DNA of 64,000 nt from a phage, in the NCBI GenBank assembly GCA_019234695.1, contig GCA_019234695.1_3937.1, one strand, 5' to 3'. The translations under genes and the position numbers were made by a program. How positions within the stretch are numbered: position 1 is the first letter of the stretch; each line of letters opens with the position of its first letter. Under the pieces are notes generated by a model. It worked only from the letters and a program-made list of their open reading frames with translations, did no database searches and was not told where the DNA came from. Below are positions 23,982-30,996 of the stretch, piece by piece.

Positions 23982-25397
23982 ATGAGCGAATTATTTAAAC
24001 ATGCGAACCTTCATGCAGGTCGAACTGAAAATGGTGCTGTAAACCATACTTCATCAATGTCTGCTCTTGTAGACTTTTACAAAGCTGCTGGTTCAAGCCG
24101 TAGCAACGTAGAAATCTTACCAGACCTGTTCTACAAAGCTTTGCGTGAGGATGTTGATGTTGCAGTTCGTATTTTGCTTCATATGCGAGATGTACGAGAA
24201 GGTATGGGTGAGCGTAAAGCCTTCAGAACTGTTTTGCTTCAAGCAATTGAAGATAAAGTTTTAGAGCCTACACAGGTTCTTCGCATTATGGATAAGATTG
24301 CAGAACTTGGTCGTTTTGATGACTTCAAAATCTTCGTGGGTACTTGTTTCGAGACAGATGCCTTCAAACATTTAGAAGCAGCATTACTAGACCCTGCAAC
24401 AGCAGGTTTGGCGGCTAAGTGGTTACCACGAGTCAAACCACGTCATAAGCAGTTTGTAAAACGTTTCTGCAAGTTTGCCAACTTGAGTGAGAAAGAGTAC
24501 CGCACACTGTTGTCTGCACTATCTGATACAGTTGAGCAAAAAATCTCTGCTAATGAGTTTGGTAAGATTGACTACAGTAAGATTCCTTCACTTGCTGCTG
24601 CACGTTACCAAAAACTGTTTAACCGTAAAGATGGAGAGCGTTACAAAGCTTACATCGAGTCCTTATCAAAAGGTGAGACTAAGATTAGCGCTGGTGCTGT
24701 TTACCCATACGATGTGATTAAATCCGTCAAGCATGGTAATGCAGATGTTGCTAATGAGCAGTGGAAAGCACTACCAAACTGGATGGCAGAAGGTGAAAAC
24801 ATCTTGTGTATGTCTGATGTATCAAGTTCAATGTCTTGGGTGAATTTTGGCTCCATTACTGCTCTGGATATTGGTGTATCACTTGCCTTGTATGTAGCAG
24901 AACGCAATACAGGTTGCTTTAAGAATGAGTTGATGGTTTATTCAACAAACCCTCACTTCATCGAACTGAGTGGTGATTTACGAAACCGTCATCGTCAGGT
25001 GATGCGACACGTTGAATATGGCTCAACTAACTTACAAGCAGCTTTTGACCGCATTCTTGAGACAGGCAAAAGAAACAACTTGACTCAGAAAGATATGCCA
25101 AGTAAGCTTATCATCTTCTCCGATATGGAGTTTAATCAGGTTGATGGGGCTAACGGTCGTACAAACTTTGAAGCAATTCAGAGTAAGTACAAAAAAGCTG
25201 GATATGAGATGCCACAACTGGTATTCTGGTACTTAGCAAACCGTAATGGTACTTGCGAAGTATCTGTTAAGGATAACGGTGTAGCAATGGTATCAGGGTT
25301 CTCTCCAGCCACTTTAAAAGCTCTGCTTGGTGGTGAGAAGTTTGACCCAATCAGTGTAATGCTCAAAGCAGTAATGATTGACCGTTATATCTGGTAA
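23982..25397 (+). CDS. Ro60-like protein (helical N-terminal domain plus vWA/MIDAS domain)
   Basis: 471 aa; SDVSSSM (DxSxS MIDAS), LIIFSDMEFN and GFSPATLKAL align by eye with human Ro60 vWA segments DVSASM, FIVFTDNETF, GFDTGAL (recalled). Confidence 0.5.
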   Translation: MSELFKHANLHAGRTENGAVNHTSSMSALVDFYKAAGSSRSNVEILPDLFYKALREDVDVAVRILLHMRDVREGMGERKAFRTVLLQAIEDKVLEPTQVLRIMDKIAELGRFDDFKIFVGTCFETDAFKHLEAALLDPATAGLAAKWLPRVKPRHKQFVKRFCKFANLSEKEYRTLLSALSDTVEQKISANEFGKIDYSKIPSLAAARYQKLFNRKDGERYKAYIESLSKGETKISAGAVYPYDVIKSVKHGNADVANEQWKALPNWMAEGENILCMSDVSSSMSWVNFGSITALDIGVSLALYVAERNTGCFKNELMVYSTNPHFIELSGDLRNRHRQVMRHVEYGSTNLQAAFDRILETGKRNNLTQKDMPSKLIIFSDMEFNQVDGANGRTNFEAIQSKYKKAGYEMPQLVFWYLANRNGTCEVSVKDNGVAMVSGFSPATLKALLGGEKFDPISVMLKAVMIDRYIW

Positions 25398-25415: not shown

Positions 25416-25444
25416 TTGACAATGTGTTTAATACCCTTTAATAT
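25416..25444 (+). promoter_or_regulatory. sigma70-like promoter upstream of tRNA cluster
   Basis: TTGACA-17-TAATAT; -35 flanked by inverted repeat GGGTATT / AATACCC. Confidence 0.55.
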
Positions 25445-25506
25445 GTTCTACATAGAAACGAAATGAGAGCTTTTCTAAGATACTGAAAAATATTTTAAAA
25501 AAGTTC

Positions 25507-25536
25507 TTGACAACCACTAAAAAATAATGTTAAAGT
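25507..25536 (+). promoter_or_regulatory. second promoter upstream of tRNA cluster
   Basis: TTGACA-18-TAAAGT with inverted repeat AACCACT / AGTGGTT; ~25 nt upstream of first tRNA. Confidence 0.4.
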
Positions 25537-25560
25537 GGTTACATAGAGTTTGAAAAGTTT

Positions 25561-25637
25561 ATCTCTGTTTAGCTCAGCTTGGTAGAGCGTTCCGTTTGGG
25601 GCGGTAAGGCCGGAGGTTCAAGTCCTCCAACAGAGAC
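25561..25637 (+). tRNA. tRNA-Pro (anticodon TGG)
   Basis: manual cloverleaf; acceptor CTCTGTT/AACAGAG, T-arm GGAGG-TTCAAGT-CCTCC, CCA encoded. Confidence 0.65.
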
Positions 25638-25644
25638 CAAATTA

Positions 25645-25722
25645 ATGTTCCAGTGGACAAAATGGTAAAGTCACCACTCTTTCAAAGTGGATATTTGAGG
25701 GTTCAAATCCCTTCTGGAACGC
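25645..25722 (+). tRNA. tRNA-Glu (TTC)
   Basis: manual fold; anticodon arm CCACT-CTTTCAA-AGTGG; T-loop TTCAAAT. Confidence 0.7.
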
Positions 25723-25728
25723 CAGTTT

Positions 25729-25802
25729 TGACAGAAGACCAATTACAGCAAACTTAATCTTATTCATCTGAAGGTAAATCGGACAAAGAAGAGATTTGGT
25801 CT
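25729..25802 (+). ncRNA. structured hairpin RNA E1 (Y RNA-like family)
   Basis: 5-prime ACAGAAGACCAATTACAGCAA pairs with 3-prime TTGGTCTGG; between tRNA-Glu and tRNA-Met. Confidence 0.45.
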
Positions 25803-25813
25803 GGTCATTAAGA

Positions 25814-25890
25814 ATTGCGGGTATAGAGAAAGGGCGTCTCACATGTCTCATTAGCATGGTATCGGCAGGTTCGACTCCTGCACCCGCCTC
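25814..25890 (+). tRNA. tRNA-Met (CAT), atypical
   Basis: anticodon arm CATGT-CTCATTA-GCATG; 1-72 mismatch and 3-nt connector before D-stem. Confidence 0.5.
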
Positions 25891-25895
25891 CAAAT

Positions 25896-25960
25896 TTACA
25901 GAAGACCGTTTACAGCAATATTTATTAAATTTTTAGCGGAAAAATTGAAAGATACGGTCT
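25896..25960 (+). ncRNA. structured hairpin RNA E2 (Y RNA-like family)
   Basis: 5-prime ACAGAAGACCGTTTACAGCAA pairs with 3-prime ACGGTCTGG; compensatory change relative to E1/E3. Confidence 0.45.
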
Positions 25961-25973
25961 GGTAATACTAAAC

Positions 25974-26050
25974 ATGGTTAGGAAGCACATAAGGTATGTG
26001 CGGTCGCCTGTTAAGCGAATGGCACAGGGTTCGAATCCCTGACTAACCGC
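25974..26050 (+). tRNA. tRNA-Asn (GTT)
   Basis: anticodon loop CTGTTAA; D-stem GCAC/GTGC; T-arm CAGGG-TTCGAAT-CCCTG. Confidence 0.7.
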
Positions 26051-26119
26051 CAAATTTAGGAGAGAAGCGATTGCTCACCGATTTGTAAGGTTCAAGTCCT
26101 TAGCCTGAATAGAAATCAA

Positions 26120-26207
26120 ATGTGTCGTTATCCCGTAGATGGTAGCGGTGGGGACTGTAAATCCCTTGTCATTGAGACTCGGTAGGTTCGACTCCTACAC
26201 GGCACAC
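26120..26207 (+). tRNA. tRNA-Tyr (GTA), long variable arm
   Basis: 88 nt; anticodon loop CTGTAAA; T-arm GTAGG-TTCGACT-CCTAC. Confidence 0.7.
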
Positions 26208-26213
26208 CAAATA

Positions 26214-26291
26214 AAGGTTATGTAGTTTAATCTGGTTAAAATACTCCCCTGTCACGGGAGATGATGAGGGTTCAAATCCCTTCATAACCGC
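26214..26291 (+). tRNA. tRNA-Asp (GTC)
   Basis: perfect acceptor GGTTATG/CATAACC; anticodon arm CTCCC-CTGTCAC-GGGAG. Confidence 0.8.
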
Positions 26292-26352
26292 CAATTTTGA
26301 GAGGGCTATTTAGCCCCTCCCTTAAAGAGTTCTTACGAGTATTCTTTAAAGG

Positions 26353-26426
26353 AGCAGAAGACCAAATACAGCAAGCATGTATGAAATTTCAAACCAATTC
26401 AATTTTGAAAATTTAAAACTTGGTCT
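26353..26426 (+). ncRNA. structured hairpin RNA E3 (Y RNA-like family)
   Basis: 5-prime CAGAAGACCAAATACAGCAA pairs with 3-prime TTGGTCTGG. Confidence 0.45.
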
Positions 26427-26438
26427 GGCTCAACAAAT

Positions 26439-26571
26439 TTACAGAAGACCGTTTACAGCAAAACTTAAACAATCTATTTCTCCGGTAAAGAAAAGGCGAG
26501 GGTTCGATTCCTTCACTCGGCAGATGTCGAGTTGGTGTAATGGTAGCACTTAAGATGATAAACAACGGTCT
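26439..26571 (+). ncRNA. candidate Y RNA (YrlA-like) with permuted tRNA-like module
   Basis: terminal stem AGACCGTT / AACGGTCT; internal order T-arm (GAGGG-TTCGATT-CCTTC), ACTCGGC, 4-nt loop, GTCGAGT, D-arm (GTGTAATGGTAGCAC). Confidence 0.5.
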
Positions 26572-26573
26572 GG

Positions 26574-26716
26574 TAATTATCTTTGTAGATAAGTTATTAA
26601 GCTTACCTGTGAGTATGCGACCACAAAGGGTGAATGGGTAAATTCTAGATTTAAACCCAAAAAGGCACATCGCTACAGACCTTAAGCAAGTCTGGGTAGC
26701 TTATCTACAAAGATAA
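26574..26716 (+). ncRNA. long hairpin element with 18-bp terminal inverted repeat
   Basis: ATTATCTTTGTAGATAAG (26574-26591) is the exact reverse complement of CTTATCTACAAAGATAAT (26699-26716); ~107 nt interior with sub-hairpins. Confidence 0.4.
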
Positions 26717-26720
26717 TTTA

Positions 26721-26796
26721 ATGGAAGTGTAGCAGAATGGTGATGCGGCAGACTTTTAATCTGACAGGCGATGGGTTCGAATCCCTCCACTTCTAC
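26721..26796 (+). tRNA. tRNA-Lys (TTT), weak T-stem
   Basis: anticodon loop CTTTTAA; acceptor GGAAGTG/CACTTCT; T-stem has two mismatches. Confidence 0.55.
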
Positions 26797-26800
26797 CAAT

Positions 26801-26877
26801 ATGGTTCAGTCGCAGATAAGGTAATGCAAGGGTCTCATAAGCCCTATGAATGTGGGTTCGATTCCCATCTGAACCTC
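26801..26877 (+). tRNA. tRNA-Met (CAT)
   Basis: perfect acceptor GGTTCAG/CTGAACC; anticodon arm AGGGT-CTCATAA-GCCCT. Confidence 0.7.
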
Positions 26878-26878
26878 C

Positions 26879-26954
26879 AAGCTGGTATAGTTAAGAAGGT
26901 TATAACACTCCCCTGATAAGGGAACATCGGTGGTTCGATTCCACCTACCAGTAC
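26879..26954 (+). tRNA. tRNA-Ile (GAT)
   Basis: anticodon loop CTGATAA; T-arm GGTGG-TTCGATT-CCACC. Confidence 0.75.
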
Positions 26955-26969
26955 CAATTTCAATAAAGT

Positions 26970-26998
26970 TGTTGACATTGAGATGTGACTACTTTATA
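26970..26998 (+). promoter_or_regulatory. internal sigma70-like promoter within tRNA cluster
   Basis: TTGACA-17-TATAGT after tRNA-Ile; precedes ~200 nt tRNA-free structured segment. Confidence 0.55.
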
Positions 26999-27200
26999 GT
27001 AACCTTAGTTTTCGTTGCGTAGCGTCTATTTTGCAAATTTAAAATAAATGCAAACGACAATGTTTTTCTGGCAGTAGCTTGATAGGCTAAACACCAGTGA
27101 GGTCTTCCAATCCCTCATCAAAGAATTTGGCGTACTCGCCCACGGTATGATTAATAAGGTGGGCATCTTTAAGGGCTTTCTAAGAGAGTCTTTAAAGATA

Positions 27201-27277
27201 ATGCACCCTTAGTTCAATTGGATAGAGCAACGGTCTTCTAAATCGTTAGTTACAGGTTCGAATCCTGTAGGGTGTAC
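27201..27277 (+). tRNA. tRNA-Arg (TCT)
   Basis: anticodon arm ACGGT-CTTCTAA-ATCGT; T-arm ACAGG-TTCGAAT-CCTGT. Confidence 0.8.
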
Positions 27278-27419
27278 CAAATAGTTAGCAGATTACTTAG
27301 ACGGCCTTAGCGGGTCTTCCTGTAGGGAGGTGGTCTGTATCTCATGTTTTCCAGAACATGTAAATAATCTGAGAAGGAGCTTGACAGTGTTGAGATAACA
27401 GGGTAAGCTTCGAATTATA

Positions 27420-27502
27420 ATATGGGACGATGTTAAGACTCTAAGGCATGAGCAACGGCCTCCAAAACCGTTTCAAAGGGGTTCAACTCCTCCGTCCCAT
27501 GC
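27420..27502 (+). tRNA. tRNA-Trp (CCA)-like, atypical
   Basis: perfect acceptor ATGGGAC/GTCCCAT; anticodon loop CTCCAAA; ~7 extra nt between acceptor and D-arm. Confidence 0.45.
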
Positions 27503-27515
27503 CAAAGTCTTATTA

Positions 27516-27603
27516 GGGGTAGGTAGCGGCTAATGGTAGCCAAACTGTCTTGAAAACAGTTGCCACTGTAGAGATACGGTGAGGGTTCGACTCCTTTACT
27601 TAC
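27516..27603 (+). tRNA. tRNA-Ser (TGA), long variable arm
   Basis: anticodon arm ACTGT-CTTGAAA-ACAGT; 20-nt variable arm; CCA not encoded. Confidence 0.75.
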
Positions 27604-27757
27604 CGCCTAATAAGATTTACTCCGTCCATGCTTGTTCGCATTGTCGGTTTATCCCTCGTGTATTGTCGTACACTGTCAAAGCACCTAGTAGGTGTCACGG
27701 AGAAGAGATAATATCAAGCTCTCCAAAGGTTCTAGTCACCGGATTAAACAAGACTAT

Positions 27758-27780
27758 GCAAAGACCTATTTAGGTCTTTT
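27758..27780 (+). terminator. terminator-like hairpin inside tRNA cluster
   Basis: AGACCTA-TT-TAGGTCT followed by TTTTT. Confidence 0.45.
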
Positions 27781-27859
27781 TAGAGGGCTTCTAAGGTTAT
27801 TAGTCGCTTGTTGTGGAACCTTGTTGCTTAGGTTCTTAGAAGTTCTCTAAAAAGATTTA

Positions 27860-27937
27860 ATGGGAGATTGACGGTAATTGGTAAACCTACCATCCTTAGA
27901 AGTTGGTGTTTGAGGGTTCGAATCCCTTGTCTCCTAC
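27860..27937 (+). tRNA. tRNA with anticodon TAG (Leu by anticodon), short variable arm
   Basis: acceptor GGGAGAT/GTCTCCT; anticodon loop CTTAGAA; discriminator A; 5-nt variable region. Confidence 0.5.
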
Positions 27938-27944
27938 CAAATTA

Positions 27945-28020
27945 ATGCAGGTGTAGCAAAATGGTTATGCGGCTGACTCTTAATCAGTAAGACGATGGGT
28001 TCAATTCCCTCCACCTGTAC
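27945..28020 (+). tRNA. tRNA-Lys (CTT), weak T-stem
   Basis: paralog of 26721..26796; anticodon arm GCTGA-CTCTTAA-TCAGT. Confidence 0.55.
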
Positions 28021-28026
28021 CAAACA

Positions 28027-28102
28027 TTGGGGATGTAGTTTACATGGTTAAAACATAAGTTTTGCAAACTTAAGTACAGGGTTCAATTCCCTGCTTCTCC
28101 AC
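28027..28102 (+). tRNA. tRNA-Ala (TGC)
   Basis: anticodon arm TAAGT-TTTGCAA-ACTTA; T-arm CAGGG-TTCAATT-CCCTG. Confidence 0.7.
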
Positions 28103-28108
28103 CAATTA

Positions 28109-28183
28109 GTGCATCCATAGTTTAAACGGGAAAATTACAGTCTTCCAAACTGAGGTTGAGGGTTCGATTCCCTCTGGATGCTC
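28109..28183 (+). tRNA. tRNA-Gly (TCC)
   Basis: perfect acceptor GCATCCA/TGGATGC; anticodon loop CTTCCAA; 75 nt. Confidence 0.7.
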
Positions 28184-28189
28184 CAAACA

Positions 28190-28266
28190 ATGCTGCTTTC
28201 GTATAATTGGCTATTACACATCCCTTGTAAGGATGGAAATGCAGGTTCGAGTCCTGTGAGCAGCAC
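28190..28266 (+). tRNA. tRNA-Thr (TGT)
   Basis: anticodon arm CATCC-CTTGTAA-GGATG; T-arm GCAGG-TTCGAGT-CCTGT. Confidence 0.8.
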
Positions 28267-28269
28267 CAA

Positions 28270-28357
28270 TTCAGAGGTCAAGTGAAAGACCGCTTTGAGT
28301 CAACTGAAGACCGTAACAAATACCACGGAGTTGAGTTAGCGGCACAACTTCAGACCT
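28270..28357 (+). ncRNA. structured hairpin RNA E5 (divergent member)
   Basis: outer stem CAGAGGTC / GACCTCTG; internal CTGAAGACCGTAACAAA resembles the E-family 5-prime motif. Confidence 0.35.
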
Positions 28358-28362
28358 CTTTC

Positions 28363-28437
28363 ATACTCGCTTAGTTTATATGGTAAAACATCACCCTTAC
28401 AAGATGAAGAAAAAGGTTCAAGTCCTTTAGTGAGTAC
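28363..28437 (+). tRNA. tRNA-Val (TAC)
   Basis: anticodon loop CTTACAA; T-arm AAAGG-TTCAAGT-CCTTT. Confidence 0.7.
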
Positions 28438-28438
28438 C

Positions 28439-28516
28439 ATGTTCCAGTATCCCAATTGGCAGAGGATGCAAGCTCAAACCTTGTATTAGTGACGGTTCGA
28501 ATCCGTCTTGGAACAC
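28439..28516 (+). tRNA. tRNA with anticodon CAA (Leu by anticodon), short variable arm
   Basis: acceptor GTTCCAG/TTGGAAC; anticodon arm GCAAG-CTCAAAC-CTTGT; discriminator A. Confidence 0.5.
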
Positions 28517-28521
28517 CAATT

Positions 28522-28597
28522 TTGCAGGATTAGTTCAAATGGAAAGAGCAACAGTCTACGAAGCTGTTAATAGGGGTTCGAATCCCTTATCCTGCGC
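28522..28597 (+). tRNA. tRNA-Arg (ACG)
   Basis: perfect acceptor GCAGGAT/ATCCTGC; anticodon loop CTACGAA. Confidence 0.8.
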
Positions 28598-28616
28598 CAG
28601 ATAAAAAGGTGATACT

Positions 28617-28859
28617 ATGCAAACATTAACAGTAGTTGAACATGAAAACTGTGAGAGTATTGAGTTTGTCAGGGTCATTGGTGTTGAACACCACATTTTC
28701 TTAAAAGTGGGATACTTATGCGACCCCGCTAGAGTAGAAAGATTTATACGTGATTGTTTTGGTGGTAGACATCTGAAGAGTGTTATTTTTGAGACAGTTT
28801 TACCAGAAGGTTTAGAAACGAATAATAACATTTACCTCCTTACGAGGATTAGACAATGA
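28617..28859 (+). CDS. hypothetical small protein embedded in tRNA cluster
   Basis: ORF track; AAAGGTG RBS-like upstream. Confidence 0.4.
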   Translation: MQTLTVVEHENCESIEFVRVIGVEHHIFLKVGYLCDPARVERFIRDCFGGRHLKSVIFETVLPEGLETNNNIYLLTRIRQ

Positions 28860-29413
28860 GATACTTAAAGTATGCTTCATGGATTTTCTTAGCTTTGTTA
28901 GAGCCATTTGCAGCAATCTTAGCAGTTATCTTAGCACCTTTTGTAGTTCCATTCTACAGTGAGAAGAAAGGACACTTACCTTTCGGGTTCAGATGGATGG
29001 AGACATATGACAACCCAATTGATGGTGATGAAGGTCACGTTAAAAGATGGGCTAATATTAGATGGATTGGTAAACTAGGTGTCTACATGCAAAGAGTCGG
29101 ATGGCTCTGGAGAAACAAAGCTTATAACTTCTCTTACCATGTATTAGGAAGAGATGTAAGAGATGTTACTAAGTGGAAAGGTAATATCAACGTAAGTTCT
29201 AACCCTGAAGATAATCAGACTGGTTATCTCCTAATGTGGAACAGTAATGCTTGGGGATTATTCGCTTTTATCCCATCAATTAAAGTCTTCGGTAAACAGT
29301 TTTACTGGAGAATTTATGTTGGATGGAAACTTAAAAGTGTTGTCCCAGAAGAAAGAGCATTCTCAAGGGAAAGAGTTATGTTGGCATTCTTTATTCATCC
29401 ACTGAGAAAGTAA
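28856..29413 (+). CDS. hypothetical membrane protein embedded in tRNA cluster
   Basis: ORF track; hydrophobic N-terminus; 4-nt start/stop overlap with upstream ORF. Confidence 0.5.
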   Translation: MRYLKYASWIFLALLEPFAAILAVILAPFVVPFYSEKKGHLPFGFRWMETYDNPIDGDEGHVKRWANIRWIGKLGVYMQRVGWLWRNKAYNFSYHVLGRDVRDVTKWKGNINVSSNPEDNQTGYLLMWNSNAWGLFAFIPSIKVFGKQFYWRIYVGWKLKSVVPEERAFSRERVMLAFFIHPLRK

Positions 29414-29420
29414 AGATTTA

Positions 29421-29496
29421 AAGGGGATTAGTTTACAAGGTTAAAACCTCGGTCTTTGAAATCGAAGAAGTTGGTTCAATTCCAACATCCCCCGCC
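29421..29496 (+). tRNA. tRNA-Gln (TTG)
   Basis: anticodon arm TCGGT-CTTTGAA-ATCGA; T-arm GTTGG-TTCAATT-CCAAC; weak 1-72 pair. Confidence 0.65.
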
Positions 29497-29498
29497 AA

Positions 29499-29577
29499 TG
29501 CTCCATTACTCCAATTGGCAGAGAGGCCAGACTTAAAATCTGTGTTATGTATCGGTTCGAATCCGATATGGAGTACC
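29499..29577 (+). tRNA. tRNA with anticodon TAA (Leu by anticodon), short variable arm
   Basis: acceptor GCTCCAT/ATGGAGT; anticodon loop CTTAAAA; 7-nt variable region; discriminator A. Confidence 0.5.
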
Positions 29578-29582
29578 AAATT

Positions 29583-29658
29583 TAGCGGTATAGCATAACT
29601 GGCAATGCAGCAGTCTCTGAAGCTGTCCTATTAAGGTTCAAATCCTTATGCCGCTGCC
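29583..29658 (+). tRNA. tRNA-Gln (CTG)
   Basis: D-stem GCAT/ATGC; anticodon loop CTCTGAA; T-arm TAAGG-TTCAAAT-CCTTA. Confidence 0.6.
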
Positions 29659-29689
29659 ACTTCTAAGGATTCTTACGAGAGTCCTTAAA

Positions 29690-29765
29690 TGTGGCCTTAT
29701 CATAAATGGTAATGCCCCATGCTGTGAACATGGTCTATACGGGTTCAAATCCCGTAGGTCACCCC
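29690..29765 (+). tRNA. tRNA-His (GTG)
   Basis: perfect anticodon arm CCATG-CTGTGAA-CATGG; T-arm ACGGG-TTCAAAT-CCCGT. Confidence 0.75.
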
Positions 29766-29771
29766 AATTTA

Positions 29772-29847
29772 TAGTCCAAGTAGCTTATATGGTTAAAGCG
29801 CGTGTCTGAAAAACATGAGAAGAGGGTTCAAATCCCACTGGACTACC
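29772..29847 (+). tRNA. tRNA-Phe (GAA)
   Basis: anticodon loop CTGAAAA; D-stem GCTT/AAGC; acceptor register ambiguous by 1 nt. Confidence 0.65.
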
Positions 29848-29864
29848 AATTTCAAAGGTGCTTA

Positions 29865-30599
29865 ATGAAAGAGATGACAGAACAAGGTAAGGAGATTTTC
29901 AATCTCTTAAAAACCGGTAAAGGGTTTTCTAACCCCCTTATTACTGGTGCAGCAGTTCTCGGTGGAACCGTAGCTGCCTCTACATCACTTGTAAGCTCTA
30001 TTAGCTCTGTATCAGACCCTACAGTAAAGGATAAGCTTGTTGCTGCTGGACTTACAACAGTTCTGCTTAACAGCTTTACCACGAGTCTGACAAGCACTAC
30101 ATCAACTACCAAAACACTAACAGATTACGGTCAAAAGTCCATTGATGAGTTTTCATCACGTATGCAGGTAGCAAAAGGTTACTCTAATGTTATGGGTGCA
30201 GCAGGTGAACAAGTTGGCTGTACACCATTTAGTGGTATTATGGGTGTTGCTACAGAGTATGGTCAAAAAACTATTGATACGATTAACAGTGCACTAGATA
30301 GTGTTAATGGTGTGTTAAGTGACTTACAAGATGCTATTGACAAAGGTCTTGATACTATTTCTGATTTAGCTGAGCAAGCTGTTAGTAAGATTAATGAAGG
30401 TATTTCAAAAATTACAGCTTATGCAGATGAAGTTGTGCAGATGATTGAAGAAGAAGCTGCTCTTATTGCAGAGTACCTTAAAACGAATATCAATGGGTTC
30501 TTAGCAGGTATCTTACCAGACTGGTTTGATGATGCTTGTAAAACTGGTGTAATTGACACTATTGCAACACCAGAAATGAAGAACGCATTACAGAAATAA
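29865..30599 (+). CDS. hypothetical Ser/Thr/Ala-rich protein embedded in tRNA cluster
   Basis: ORF 29802..30599 trimmed to internal ATG at 29865 because upstream part overlaps tRNA-Phe. Confidence 0.5.
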   Translation: MKEMTEQGKEIFNLLKTGKGFSNPLITGAAVLGGTVAASTSLVSSISSVSDPTVKDKLVAAGLTTVLLNSFTTSLTSTTSTTKTLTDYGQKSIDEFSSRMQVAKGYSNVMGAAGEQVGCTPFSGIMGVATEYGQKTIDTINSALDSVNGVLSDLQDAIDKGLDTISDLAEQAVSKINEGISKITAYADEVVQMIEEEAALIAEYLKTNINGFLAGILPDWFDDACKTGVIDTIATPEMKNALQK

Positions 30600-30601
30600 A
30601 T

Positions 30602-30694
30602 GGAAGATTAACCCTAAAAGGTAAGGGAGCAGTTTGCTAAACTGCCAGTAGCTGAGAAATCGGTGTACCAGTTCAAGTCTGGTATCTTCCTCCA
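30602..30694 (+). tRNA. tRNA-Ser (GCT), long variable arm
   Basis: 93 nt; perfect acceptor GGAAGAT/ATCTTCC; perfect anticodon arm GCAGT-TTGCTAA-ACTGC. Confidence 0.8.
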
Positions 30695-30698
30695 ATTT

Positions 30699-30774
30699 GA
30701 ATCCGTGACAGAAACGGCTATGTGCCTGTCTGCAAAACAGGTTTATAAGGGTTCGAGTCCCTTCGGATTCTCCA
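30699..30774 (+). tRNA. tRNA-Cys (GCA)
   Basis: perfect acceptor GAATCCG/CGGATTC; perfect anticodon arm CCTGT-CTGCAAA-ACAGG. Confidence 0.8.
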
Positions 30775-30811
30775 AGTTATTTTACTCTCTCTCAATTAAA
30801 ATAATAATAAT

Positions 30812-30871
30812 GCCCTGCTATAAGTATTCTTCCTTTCGCTACCGAAGAGTATTTTTAGACAGGGCTTTTTT
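30812..30871 (+). terminator. compound hairpin terminator after tRNA-Cys
   Basis: GCCCTG ... CAGGGC with nested hairpin, then TTTTTT. Confidence 0.5.
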
Positions 30872-30926: not shown

Positions 30927-30951
30927 GTTTCTCCTTGACGGTCTCTGTGCC
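30927..30951 (+). terminator. intrinsic terminator
   Basis: GACGG-TCTCTGTG-CCGTC followed by TTTTTT. Confidence 0.55.
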
Positions 30952-30996
30952 GTCTTTTTTAAGGGGAAACATGATTAACTATTTGGAGAAAACATA

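What the first reader, a model, noticed from the sequence alone, without database searches (positions are those of the whole stretch)
25561..30774. tRNA cluster of 27 genes covering all 20 amino acids
Manual folding gives 27 tRNA genes: Pro, Glu, Met x2, Asn, Tyr, Asp, Lys x2, Ile, Arg x2, Trp, Ser x2, Leu-type x3, Ala, Gly, Thr, Val, Gln x2, His, Phe, Cys. That is at least one isoacceptor for every amino acid, driven by at least three sigma70-like promoters. Such a complete set suggests partial independence from the host tRNA pool or adaptation to several hosts.
Basis: seen in the sequence. Interest (0 to 1): 0.45.

Follow-up and report, generated by a model that had tools for sequence, protein, structure and literature searches.

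The report
Felix O1-type phage tRNA array
This is the already-published tRNA gene block of a Felix O1-like enterobacterial phage: 26 ordinary tRNA genes plus one conserved, oddly shaped tryptophan tRNA-like gene that prediction software misses, interleaved with small structured RNAs that probably partner with the Ro60-like protein encoded next door.

Summary
The window is a Felixounavirus (96-97% identical to published E. coli phages). ARAGORN finds 26 tRNA genes at 25563-30774, all on the + strand. RefSeq annotates the same 26 in a close relative, and the literature gives 22-26 tRNAs covering 19 amino acids for this phage group.

The 27th gene (Trp, 27422-27504) is rejected by ARAGORN and by Rfam's tRNA model. 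It is nevertheless a real, conserved RNA:
- It occurs in 236 phage records and is never annotated as a tRNA.
- 8 of its 20 base pairs show compensatory changes.
- The CCA anticodon, G73 and 3' CCA are invariant.

Its shape is non-canonical: an 8-bp acceptor stem, a 4-bp T stem, a 9-nt acceptor-D linker and a 31·39 mismatch. The other 23 relatives carry a different tRNA-Trp at the same position.

So "27 genes, 20 amino acids" is plausible but unproven. The cluster itself is already known.

Also found: an initiator-like Met tRNA, three Leu tRNAs without a long variable arm, and four Y-RNA-like modules in the spacers. One of these is a YrlA-style tRNA mimic. They lie about 0.3-1.2 kb downstream of a Ro60-like gene.

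The parts
23982..25397 (+). Ro60-like (TROVE+vWA fold) RNA-binding protein gene directly upstream of the array
   Evidence: Pfam DUF2828+DUF7788. PHROG 850 'RNA-binding protein'. AF2 model pLDDT 88.8. The top 11 Foldseek PDB hits are all Ro60/TROVE, E 1e-8 to 1e-6.
25416..25444 (+). sigma70-like promoter P1 (TTGACA-17-TAATAT)
   Evidence: conserved in Moogle
25507..25536 (+). sigma70-like promoter P2 (TTGACA-18-TAAAGT, with TG)
   Evidence: conserved in Moogle
25563..25639 (+). tRNA-Pro (UGG)
   Evidence: ARAGORN; Rfam 57.7 bits
25647..25724 (+). tRNA-Glu (UUC)
25729..25807 (+). Y-RNA-like module R1 (4-bp helix / AGA:G loop / AGACCAA:UUGGUCU helix / UUACAGCAA)
   Evidence: 42.2 bits
25816..25892 (+). 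tRNA-Met (CAU) no. 1, initiator-like (U1·C72 mismatch); weak scorer
   Evidence: ARAGORN. No Rfam tRNA hit. The 1·72 mismatch is conserved in 4 lineages.
25896..25965 (+). Y-RNA-like module R2
   Evidence: 58.7 bits
25976..26052 (+). tRNA-Asn (GUU)
26122..26209 (+). tRNA-Tyr (GUA), long variable arm
   Evidence: ARAGORN; Rfam gives only tRNA-Sec at 29.6 bits
26216..26293 (+). tRNA-Asp (GUC)
26352..26431 (+). Y-RNA-like module R3
26439..26576 (+). Y-RNA-like module R4 with a permuted tRNA-like domain (T arm, closed acceptor-like stem, D arm at 26498-26549): YrlA-type topology
   Evidence: 170 bits; homologues in other phage groups at 30-65 bits
26723..26798 (+). tRNA-Lys (UUU)
26803..26879 (+). 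tRNA-Met (CAU) no. 2, elongator-like (G1-C72)
26881..26956 (+). tRNA-Ile (GAU)
26972..27000 (+). sigma70-like promoter P3 (TTGACA-17-TATAGT, 11 of 12)
   Evidence: conserved in Moogle
27203..27279 (+). tRNA-Arg (UCU)
27422..27504 (+). non-canonical tRNA-Trp-like gene (anticodon CCA, G73, encoded CCA; 8-bp acceptor, 9-nt linker GAUGUUAAG, 3-bp D stem, C31·A39 mismatch, 4-bp T stem)
   Evidence: Not called by ARAGORN or Rfam. Present in 236 phage records. Covariation. Covariance model scores 111.5 bits.
27518..27607 (+). tRNA-Ser (UGA); the only gene without an encoded CCA (ends GCC, then T)
27862..27939 (+). tRNA-Leu (UAG), short variable loop, A73
27947..28022 (+). tRNA-Lys (CUU)
28029..28104 (+). 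tRNA-Ala (UGC)
28111..28185 (+). tRNA-Gly (UCC)
28192..28268 (+). tRNA-Thr (UGU)
28365..28439 (+). tRNA-Val (UAC)
28441..28518 (+). tRNA-Leu (CAA), short variable loop, A73
28524..28599 (+). tRNA-Arg (ACG)
28617..28859 (+). embedded ORF, 80 aa, unknown function
   Evidence: PHROG 14202; annotated as hypothetical in TP1
28856..29413 (+). embedded ORF, 185 aa, DUF7338
29422..29497 (+). tRNA-Gln (UUG)
29500..29578 (+). tRNA-Leu (UAA), short variable loop, A73
29584..29659 (+). tRNA-Gln (CUG)
29691..29766 (+). tRNA-His (GUG)
29773..29848 (+). tRNA-Phe (GAA)
29865..30599 (+). embedded ORF, 244 aa, DUF7217
30602..30694 (+). tRNA-Ser (GCU)
30699..30774 (+). tRNA-Cys (GCA)
30812..30871 (+). long hairpin (GCCCTG...CAGGGC) followed by TTTTTT: terminator-like end of the array
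   Evidence: Read directly from the sequence. A second terminator-like site at 30937-30954 is listed.

Best explanation
Shown: this is the tRNA gene array of a Felix O1-like myovirus (Felixounavirus). It holds 26 canonical tRNA genes and one conserved, structurally non-canonical tRNA-Trp-like gene. All lie on one strand within 5.2 kb, between a Ro60-like gene and the terminase genes. Every gene except Ser(UGA) encodes its own CCA end. Inferred from consensus and conservation: host RNA polymerase transcribes the array from at least three sigma70-type promoters as polycistronic precursors. Inferred from general knowledge: host RNase P and 3'-end nucleases cut these precursors into tRNAs. Shown: the anticodons form a near-minimal complete decoding set. 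It has one U34 tRNA per family box, I34 for CGN, G34 for NNY, an initiator-like and an elongator-like Met tRNA, and CCA for Trp. The exactly matching codons are those the 39%-GC phage uses more than E. coli does: AGA 9x, CUA 3.5x, CCA 2.7x, and UUA, ACA and UCA about 2x. Inferred: the array supplements the host tRNA pool during infection, and late in infection may largely replace it, keeping translation of phage genes efficient. The spacers carry four copies of a Y-RNA-like module, which probably bind the neighbouring Ro60-like protein.
For: Identity as an array: ARAGORN finds 26 genes and Rfam 24. The region is 96-97% identical to published Felixounavirus genomes, whose annotation lists the same 26 genes. 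Published descriptions: Felix O1 with 22 tRNAs (PMC3185647) and Sf14 with 26 tRNAs for 19 amino acids (PMC12482277). Trp-like gene: RNAalifold independently predicts the cloverleaf I had drawn by hand. 99.5% of cells are paired, against 36-54% when partners are slid. 8 of 20 pairs show double changes, and the anticodon CCA, G73 and 3' CCA are invariant. Allele A (236 records) and a different ARAGORN-called tRNA-Trp, allele B (23 records), occupy the same position. Their per-genus counts add up exactly to the number of cluster-bearing records for Escherichia, Shigella, Citrobacter, Felixounavirus and Enterobacteria. Promoters. Codon usage and coverage. Initiator-like Met. Function: the Sf14 study favours reliance on phage tRNAs late in infection.
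Against: No expression, processing or aminoacylation data were available. The Trp-like gene fails every automated tRNA test. Its 9-nt linker, 8/4 stems and 31·39 mismatch might prevent charging or ribosome use. In Bas63 the tRNA genes were mostly non-essential on laboratory hosts. The abundant NNU codons (GGU, GCU, ACU, GUU and others) have no exactly matching phage tRNA and depend on U34 wobble or on host tRNAs. UCC reading GGU in particular is an assumption. According to the Sf14 paper, half of the tRNAs score best for a different isotype in tRNAscan-SE isotype models.
Confidence: 0.75

Rival explanations
1. Only 26 decoding tRNAs (19 amino acids) are present. On this reading the Trp-like element is not used in translation. 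It would be a tRNA mimic, for example a ligand of the Ro60-like protein, a decoy for a host factor, or a processing or regulatory element.
For: All predictors reject it. It has an invariant single-stranded 9-mer, GAUGUUAAG, that a protein could bind. It lies in an array that demonstrably holds other tRNA mimics such as R4, next to a Ro60-like gene. The PhageMaP authors speculated that some annotated 'tRNAs' are Y RNAs.
Against: The acceptor end is free, with G73 and CCA. The CCA anticodon is invariant and flanked by U33 and A37, while four anticodon-stem pairs and loop positions 32 and 38 vary. The window copy has A1-U72, as E. coli tRNA-Trp does (own knowledge of TrpRS identity elements). It is exchanged allele-for-allele with a predictor-accepted tRNA-Trp in 23 relatives. 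It lacks the closing module shared by R1-R4.
Confidence: 0.25
2. The main selective value of the array is counter-defence. The phage copies would replace host tRNAs cleaved by anticodon nucleases (the PrrC, RloC, VapC, PARIS and retron-PtuAB types), as reported for T5 and for mycobacteriophages.
For: This role is established for other phage tRNA arrays (own knowledge, cited in general terms). The neighbouring Ro60-like gene counters the ppl defence system in Bas63, so the region has a defence-related context.
Against: The Sf14 analysis of the same 26 tRNAs found no anticodon-loop mutation pattern that fits nuclease escape, and it excluded this hypothesis. The Lys(UUU) anticodon loop reads CUUUUAA, the same as I recall for E. 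coli (sequence; the comparison is from memory).
Confidence: 0.2
3. The array exists to let one phage infect several hosts with different tRNA pools.
For: The same array occurs in phages of Escherichia, Salmonella, Shigella and Citrobacter.
Against: Those hosts have very similar codon usage and tRNA sets (own knowledge). The Sf14 study tested host-range expansion and excluded it. Conservation across phages says nothing about the range of any one phage.
Confidence: 0.1

Closest known systems
tRNA clusters of Felix O1, wV8, E. coli O157 typing phage 1 and Shigella phage Sf14 (Ounavirinae)
   Same: Same genes in the same order, with 94-97% nucleotide identity. The same 26 anticodons are tabulated for Sf14. 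The flanks are the same: an 'RNA-binding protein' gene upstream and terminase downstream.
   Different: Nothing substantial differs in the 26 genes. Published counts (22, 23, 26 tRNAs; '19 amino acids') omit the Trp-like gene at 27422-27504. The window has a 69-nt tRNA-fragment insertion between Asn and Tyr that TP1 lacks.
Phage T4 tRNA region (eight tRNAs, two small stable RNAs of unknown function, and the segB homing endonuclease) and phage T5 tRNA clusters (from own knowledge)
   Same: tRNA genes are clustered and co-transcribed, with small structured non-tRNA RNAs in the same precursors. Homing-endonuclease genes create alternative alleles within the array.
   Different: The Felix-type array is much larger and near-complete. 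Its Leu tRNAs lack the long variable arm. Its spacer RNAs share a defined module and lie next to a Ro60-like gene.
tRNA-Sec and 'allo-tRNAs' with 8/5, 9/4 or 8/4 acceptor/T-stem geometry (own knowledge: Mukai et al. 2017)
   Same: The Trp-like gene has an 8-bp acceptor stem and a 4-bp T stem, 12 stacked pairs in total as in a 7/5 tRNA. Its only Rfam match is tRNA-Sec, and that match is weak.
   Different: The anticodon is CCA, not UCA. There is no long variable arm and no 6-bp D stem. Instead it has a conserved 9-nt acceptor-D linker and a conserved 31·39 mismatch.
YrlA-type bacterial and phage Y RNAs bound by Ro60/Rsr (Chen et al. 2014, PMC4201824; Thermus phage phiLo Yrl1/2, PMC12135203)
   Same: R4 has the YrlA order of elements: terminal stem, V, T arm, closed acceptor-like stem, D arm. 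It lies about 1 kb from a Ro60-fold gene and occurs together with shorter Y-like RNAs.
   Different: The conserved motif is GAAG..(W)UWCMGCAA beside the stem, not GNCGAAN0-1G/CGAA. Rfam gives no match. The partner protein belongs to DUF2828, not to an annotated TROVE family. Binding is untested.

Membership tests
Canonical bacterial-type tRNA (Rfam RF00005 / ARAGORN cloverleaf): the 26 genes | Detected by independent tRNA predictors with a standard cloverleaf | tested here: met
   ARAGORN 26 of 26. Rfam at gathering score 24 of 26. Met no. 1 and Tyr are supported by ARAGORN only.
Canonical bacterial-type tRNA: the Trp-like gene 27422-27504 | 7-bp acceptor stem, 2-nt linker (positions 8-9), 5-bp T stem, fully paired 5-bp anticodon stem, and detection by predictors | tested here: not met
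   It has an 8-bp acceptor stem, a 9-nt linker, a 4-bp T stem and a conserved 31·39 mismatch. ARAGORN and RF00005 do not call it.
Canonical bacterial-type tRNA: the Trp-like gene 27422-27504 | Four-arm cloverleaf maintained by selection, 7-nt anticodon loop with U33 and a purine at 37, T loop UUCRANY, GG in the D loop, discriminator base plus CCA | tested here: met
   Alignment A1: 8 of 20 pairs have compensatory changes and 99.5% of cells are paired. Loop is C/U-U-CCA-A-A/C, T loop TTCRAMT, D loop contains GG, end is G73-CCA.
tRNA-Trp identity for E. coli TrpRS (own knowledge: anticodon CCA, G73, A1-U72, G2-C71, G3-C70) | Anticodon CCA and discriminator G73 | tested here: met
   Invariant in 11 distinct sequences from 5 phage groups.
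tRNA-Trp identity for E. coli TrpRS | A1-U72, G2-C71 and G3-C70 in the acceptor stem | tested here: inconclusive
   The window has A1-U72, U2-A71 and G3-C70. Relatives have G1·U72 or G1-C72.
tRNA-Trp identity for E. coli TrpRS | Aminoacylation with tryptophan | not testable with these tools
   Needs in vitro charging or acid-gel Northern blots.
Bacterial initiator tRNA (own knowledge: RajBhandary rules): Met no. 1, 25816-25892 | No Watson-Crick pair at 1:72 | tested here: met
   U1·C72 in the window; A·A, A·C and U·U in P778, Arno18 and contig L215. Met no. 2 has G1-C72.
Bacterial initiator tRNA: Met no. 1 | Three consecutive G:C pairs (29-31:39-41) in the anticodon stem | tested here: not met
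   The window stem is CAUGU/GCAUG; relatives have two G:C pairs next to the loop. Loop position 37 is U, which is unusual.
Bacterial class II tRNA-Leu: the three Leu-anticodon genes | Long variable arm | tested here: not met
   They are 78-79 nt including CCA, with variable loops of about 4-7 nt.
Bacterial class II tRNA-Leu | A73, plus a 3-bp D stem with an AAUUGGNAGA-type D loop | tested here: met
   In the near-identical Sf14 genes, tRNAscan-SE isotype models score Leu highest.
YrlA-type Y RNA: module R4 | Encoded next to a Ro60 orthologue | tested here: met
   About 1 kb downstream of ORF 23982-25397, whose model matches Ro60 structures over its full length. The same arrangement occurs in three other phage groups.
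YrlA-type Y RNA: module R4 | 5'/3' terminal stem plus V, T, closed acceptor-like stem and D in that order | tested here: met
   RNAalifold and single-sequence minimum-energy folds agree. The acceptor-like stem covaries among three variants.
YrlA-type Y RNA: module R4 | Conserved GNCGAAN0-1G / CGAA Ro-binding motif, and a match to known Y RNA models | tested here: not met
   A different conserved motif is present (AGAAGACC..UUACAGCAA). There is no Rfam match at E<=10.
YrlA-type Y RNA: module R4 | Binding to the Ro60-like protein | not testable with these tools
   Needs RIP-seq or EMSA.

The most novel reading that the evidence does not exclude
Felix O1-like phages would carry a genuinely complete minimal decoding set. 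In that case their tryptophan tRNA is a functional tRNA with a cloverleaf not described before: 8/4 stems, a conserved 9-nt acceptor-D linker and a 31·39 mismatch. All standard predictors miss it, and it is unannotated in 236 sequenced phages. In addition, the array's spacers would encode a previously undescribed family of Y-RNA-like RNAs. This family includes a YrlA-style tRNA mimic and is conserved next to DUF2828 Ro60-like genes in several unrelated phage groups. These RNAs would be the missing RNA partners of the Ro60-like anti-defence protein (Bas63 gp130).
Probability: 0.4. Interest if true: 0.65.

Novelty: already known. Interest (0 to 1): 0.4.

Why it matters
The cluster itself adds nothing new. 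It has been published for Felix O1, wV8 and Sf14, and is annotated in hundreds of genomes.

Two things would matter if confirmed.

First, the literature's "19 amino acids, no Trp" may be an artefact of predictor blindness. A functional non-canonical tRNA-Trp would make this a complete minimal decoding set and would widen the range of tRNA shapes known to work in E. coli. That bears on phage independence from host tRNAs and on tRNA engineering.

Second, the Y-RNA-like modules give a concrete, testable candidate for the RNA partner of the Ro60-like protein that counters the ppl defence system. The PhageMaP authors only speculated that such RNAs exist.

Tried and rejected
- **ARAGORN rescue of Trp.** Running ARAGORN at 80% and 70% thresholds and in intron mode did not recover the Trp gene. 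It only added obvious false positives.
- **14-mer scan.** An exact 14-mer scan of IMG/VR for the Trp-like linker gave mostly chance hits. BLAST filtering kept only Felix-like contigs.
- **Trp-like as tRNA-Sec.** Rejected. The match is weak (23 bits), the anticodon is CCA, and there is no long variable arm.
- **Alternative D stem ATGT/GCAT in the Trp-like gene.** Rejected because it is not conserved in P778.
- **CAU tRNAs as tRNA-Ile2.** There is no support. Published isotype scores are low for Ile2, and AUA makes up only 5% of Ile codons.
- **Weak tmRNA and permuted-tmRNA hits at 26898-27202.** These score 15-29 bits, below threshold. ARAGORN finds no tmRNA.
- **R modules pairing across the intervening tRNA, or lying on the minus strand.** Rejected. 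The covarying dinucleotides match only within each element, and the outer helix forms only on the + strand (4 bp against 0-1 bp on the minus strand).
- **Ro60 relationship by sequence.** Sequence searches of the PDB with the protein and with its family profile found nothing. Only the fold comparison showed the relationship.
- **Y RNA or YrlA match in Rfam.** None.
- **Supplementary tables of Chen et al. 2014.** Not held, so I could not check whether Felix-like phages were in their list.

Full report
**Source of the window.** Megablast of 25500-30800 against GenBank phages gives 347 records. 232 of them cover at least 80% of the query, and the best are 96-97% identical. All of these are Felix O1-like myoviruses (Ounavirinae, genus Felixounavirus) of Escherichia, Salmonella and Shigella. 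The finding therefore lies in a well-sequenced phage lineage.

**Check of the observation.**
- ARAGORN finds 26 tRNA genes at 25563-30774, all on the + strand, and none elsewhere in the 64-kb window.
- Rfam's tRNA model confirms 24 at gathering score. Met 25816-25892 gets no tRNA hit, and Tyr 26122-26209 gets only 29.6 bits to tRNA-Sec.
- RefSeq annotation of E. coli O157 typing phage 1 lists the same 26 genes in the same order, with no Trp.
- The Felix O1 paper reports 22 tRNAs (PMC3185647).
- A 2025 paper on the related phage Sf14 tabulates the same 26 anticodons and states "19 different amino acids" (PMC12482277).
- All genes except Ser(UGA) encode their CCA end.

**The 27th gene (Trp).** The only CCA-anticodon element is 27422-27504. 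ARAGORN does not call it, even at 70% threshold or with introns allowed. Rfam gives only a 23-bit, E=0.41 match to tRNA-Sec.

The element is not noise:
- BLAST finds it in 236 phage records (Felixounavirus, Mooglevirus, Suspvirus, Yersinia phage P778 and Pectobacterium phages). In no listed record is it annotated as a tRNA.
- Eleven distinct sequences were aligned. RNAalifold predicts the same structure I had drawn by hand:
  - an 8-bp acceptor stem;
  - a nearly invariant 9-nt linker, GAUGUUAAG;
  - a 3-bp D stem with GG in its loop;
  - a 5-bp anticodon stem formed by positions 26-30 and 40-44, with a conserved 31·39 mismatch closing the loop C/U-U-CCA-A-A/C;
  - a 5-nt variable loop;
  - a 4-bp T stem with a TTCRAMT loop;
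  - G73 and CCA.
- 99.5% of cells are paired, against 36-54% when partners are slid. 8 of 20 pairs show changes on both sides, against none in any slid control.
- A covariance model built from it scores 92-111 bits on the orthologues. It scores at most 40 bits on ordinary tRNAs, and each genome has one copy.
- Its 3' two-thirds is 71% identical to the neighbouring tRNA-Arg(UCU). This suggests an origin by duplication followed by an anticodon shift (inference).

**A second Trp allele.** 23 relatives, including wV8, typing phages 8, 11, 12 and 15, and phiSUSP1, carry a different gene at exactly this position. It is a 71-nt tRNA-Trp(CCA) that ARAGORN accepts, followed by a small ORF with sub-threshold HNH matches.

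The per-genus counts of the two alleles add up exactly to the counts of cluster-bearing records:

| Genus or label | Allele A | Allele B | Cluster-bearing records |
|---|---|---|---|
| Escherichia | 108 | 12 | 120 |
| Shigella | 20 | 2 | 22 |
| Felixounavirus | 12 | 2 | 14 |
| Citrobacter | 11 | 0 | 11 |
| Enterobacteria | 9 | 0 | 9 |

This fits every genome having one allele or the other at the site, though the check was on totals, not genome by genome. Together with the invariant anticodon, G73 and the free CCA end, this is the main argument that the window's element serves as tRNA-Trp. Charging is untested. I put the functional-tRNA reading at about 0.7.

**Other features of the tRNA set.**
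- *Met no. 1* has no Watson-Crick pair at 1:72. This is conserved with four different mismatches in four lineages (U·C, A·A, A·C, U·U). A 1:72 mismatch is the hallmark of bacterial initiator tRNA (established knowledge). The three G:C pairs of the initiator anticodon stem are absent, however.
- *Met no. 2* has G1-C72. "Met x2" is therefore probably one initiator-like and one elongator tRNA.
- *The three Leu-anticodon tRNAs* are 78-79 nt long with short variable loops, A73 and a Leu-type 3-bp D stem and loop. They lack the long variable arm that defines bacterial tRNA-Leu. Published tRNAscan isotype scores for the near-identical Sf14 genes still favour Leu.

**Decoding capacity.** Codon counts came from 66 ORFs in the window. 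The comparison set was 60 E. coli K-12 genes. The exact-match codons of the phage tRNAs are over-used by the phage:

| Codon | Over-use relative to E. coli |
|---|---|
| AGA | 9.4x |
| CUA | 3.5x |
| CCA | 2.7x |
| UUA | 2.2x |
| ACA | 2.2x |
| UCA | 2.1x |
| GCA | 1.8x |
| GUA | 1.6x |
| AAG | 1.5x |

The equally favoured NNU codons have no exactly matching phage tRNA. The 27 anticodons form a minimal-set pattern: one U34 tRNA per family box, ACG for CGN and G34 for NNY. They would read 52 of 61 codons (95.9% of usage) under standard wobble. Under four-way U34 wobble they would read 59 of 61 (99.6%), missing only AUA and CGG.

**Expression signals.**
- Three strong sigma70-type sites precede tRNA groups: 25416, 25507 and 26972, matching 10-11 of 12 consensus positions.
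- Sites of this quality are enriched on the + strand of the region. Four are observed against 1.13 +/- 1.08 in dinucleotide shuffles, and 10 of 300 shuffles reach four.
- The three sites are positionally conserved in phage Moogle.
- A weaker TTGACA-17-TAAGCT site at 27383 would start transcription 2-4 nt before the Trp-like gene. This was read from the sequence. One relative's record annotates a promoter overlapping the Trp-like region.
- A long hairpin followed by a T-run at 30812-30871 ends the array.

**Surroundings: a Ro60-like gene.** ORF 23982-25397 is annotated "RNA-binding protein" in relatives and matches Pfam DUF2828+DUF7788. Its AlphaFold model has pLDDT 88.8. The model matches Ro60/TROVE structures over its full length: the top 11 PDB hits have E 1e-8 to 1e-6 and include the Thermus phage phiLo Ro60. 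A preprint on the Felixounavirus Bas63 had already noted this fold for gp130. It showed that gp130 counters the ppl defence system, found the tRNA genes mostly non-essential on laboratory hosts, and speculated that some "tRNAs" are Y RNAs.

**Y-RNA-like modules in the spacers.** Four tRNA spacers hold copies of one module, R1-R4 at 25729-25807, 25896-25965, 26352-26431 and 26439-26576. The module consists of:
- a 4-bp outer helix;
- an invariant AGA:G internal loop;
- a 7-bp helix, AGACCNN:NNGGUCU;
- the motif UUACAGCAA.

In 30 distinct copies from Felix-like contigs, all 11 pairs are 100% paired and 5 of them covary. Pairing stops beyond the fourth outer pair. The outer helix forms only on the + strand.

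R4 encloses a T arm, a closed acceptor-like stem and a D arm. This is the element order described for bacterial YrlA Y RNAs (PMC4201824). The closed stem covaries among three variants. Rfam has no match.

Homologues of the Ro60-like protein at 46-51% identity, in unrelated 140-250 kb phage contigs, also lie next to tRNA clusters. The 600-700 nt between gene and first tRNA in two of these contigs hold tandem modules of the same design: helix, then WUWCMGCAA, then the complementary strand. A covariance model built from R4 hits them full-length at 53-65 bits, and hits P778 at 30-33 bits. This is a followed-up side observation, not part of the original finding.

**Verdict.** The 27th gene is real and conserved but non-canonical, and its function is unproven. 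The interpretation (partial independence from the host tRNA pool) is reasonable and has already been argued in print. Multi-host adaptation is not supported. The cluster is already known. The possibly new points are the unannotated non-canonical tRNA-Trp gene and the Y-RNA-like module family.

Noticed in passing
window 23982-25397 (+): The gene directly upstream of the array has a Ro60 (TROVE+vWA) fold, although Pfam knows it only as DUF2828+DUF7788. Its Bas63 orthologue gp130 is reported to counter the ppl defence system.
   Followed up: yes
window 25729-25807, 25896-25965, 26352-26431, 26439-26576 (+): Four copies of a structured module lie in tRNA spacers: a 4-bp helix, an AGA:G loop, the helix AGACCNN:NNGGUCU, and UUACAGCAA. 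Both helices covary. The fourth copy holds a permuted tRNA-like domain (T arm, closed acceptor-like stem, D arm) like YrlA Y RNAs. Rfam gives no match.
   Followed up: yes
L218:7525-8120, L215:7580-7870, L002:755-1975, L217:367 and 5972: Unrelated phages that encode a homologue of the Ro60-like protein carry tandem modules of the same design (helix, WUWCMGCAA, complementary strand). The modules lie between that gene and their tRNA clusters, or among the tRNA genes themselves. Several have T/closed-stem/D domains. A covariance model from the window's R4 hits them at 30-65 bits.
   Followed up: partly
window 26573-26720 (+): A 148-nt element is closed by a perfect stem of about 24 bp, with three inner hairpins. 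It lies between R4 and tRNA-Lys. Its folding z-score is -6.2. It could be an RNase III-type processing site or another small RNA.
   Followed up: partly
window 28269-28364 (+): The Thr-Val spacer folds into a closed structure (AGAGGUC...GACCUCU, z = -4.0). It contains GAAGACCGUAACAAAUAC, which resembles the 5' motif of the R modules.
   Followed up: no
window 27280-27421 (+): The spacer between Arg(UCU) and the Trp-like gene is strongly structured (z = -3.0). It contains a TTGACA -35-like hexamer at 27383.
   Followed up: no
window 26053-26121 (+): A 69-nt insertion between tRNA-Asn and tRNA-Tyr carries a T-arm-like remnant (UAAGGUUCAAGUCCUUA). In typing phage 1 the two genes are only 9 nt apart. 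This looks like a decayed tRNA gene.
   Followed up: partly
L004:1156-1503 and 1647-2136; window 27422-27504: 23 relatives have an alternative cassette at the Trp position: a 71-nt tRNA-Trp plus a small ORF with weak HNH matches. A further HNH-like ORF follows the Arg(UCU) position. This is homing-endonuclease-type mosaicism inside the array, reminiscent of T4 segB.
   Followed up: partly
window 27862-27939, 28441-28518, 29500-29578 (+): All three Leu-anticodon tRNAs lack the long variable arm that defines bacterial tRNA-Leu. They keep A73 and a Leu-type D arm.
   Followed up: partly
window 25816-25892 (+): The first CAU tRNA has a 1:72 mismatch that is conserved, with different bases, in four phage lineages. 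This is an initiator-like feature. It also has a conserved U at position 37, and Rfam's tRNA model does not detect it.
   Followed up: partly
L002:3233-3345 (+): Yersinia phage P778 has an uncalled 113-nt tRNA-like element between Arg(UCU) and its Trp-like gene: GGUCUG, then a long insert, then a T arm, then CAGACC. Its terminal helix has the same sequence as the R-module helix but in the normal tRNA order.
   Followed up: no
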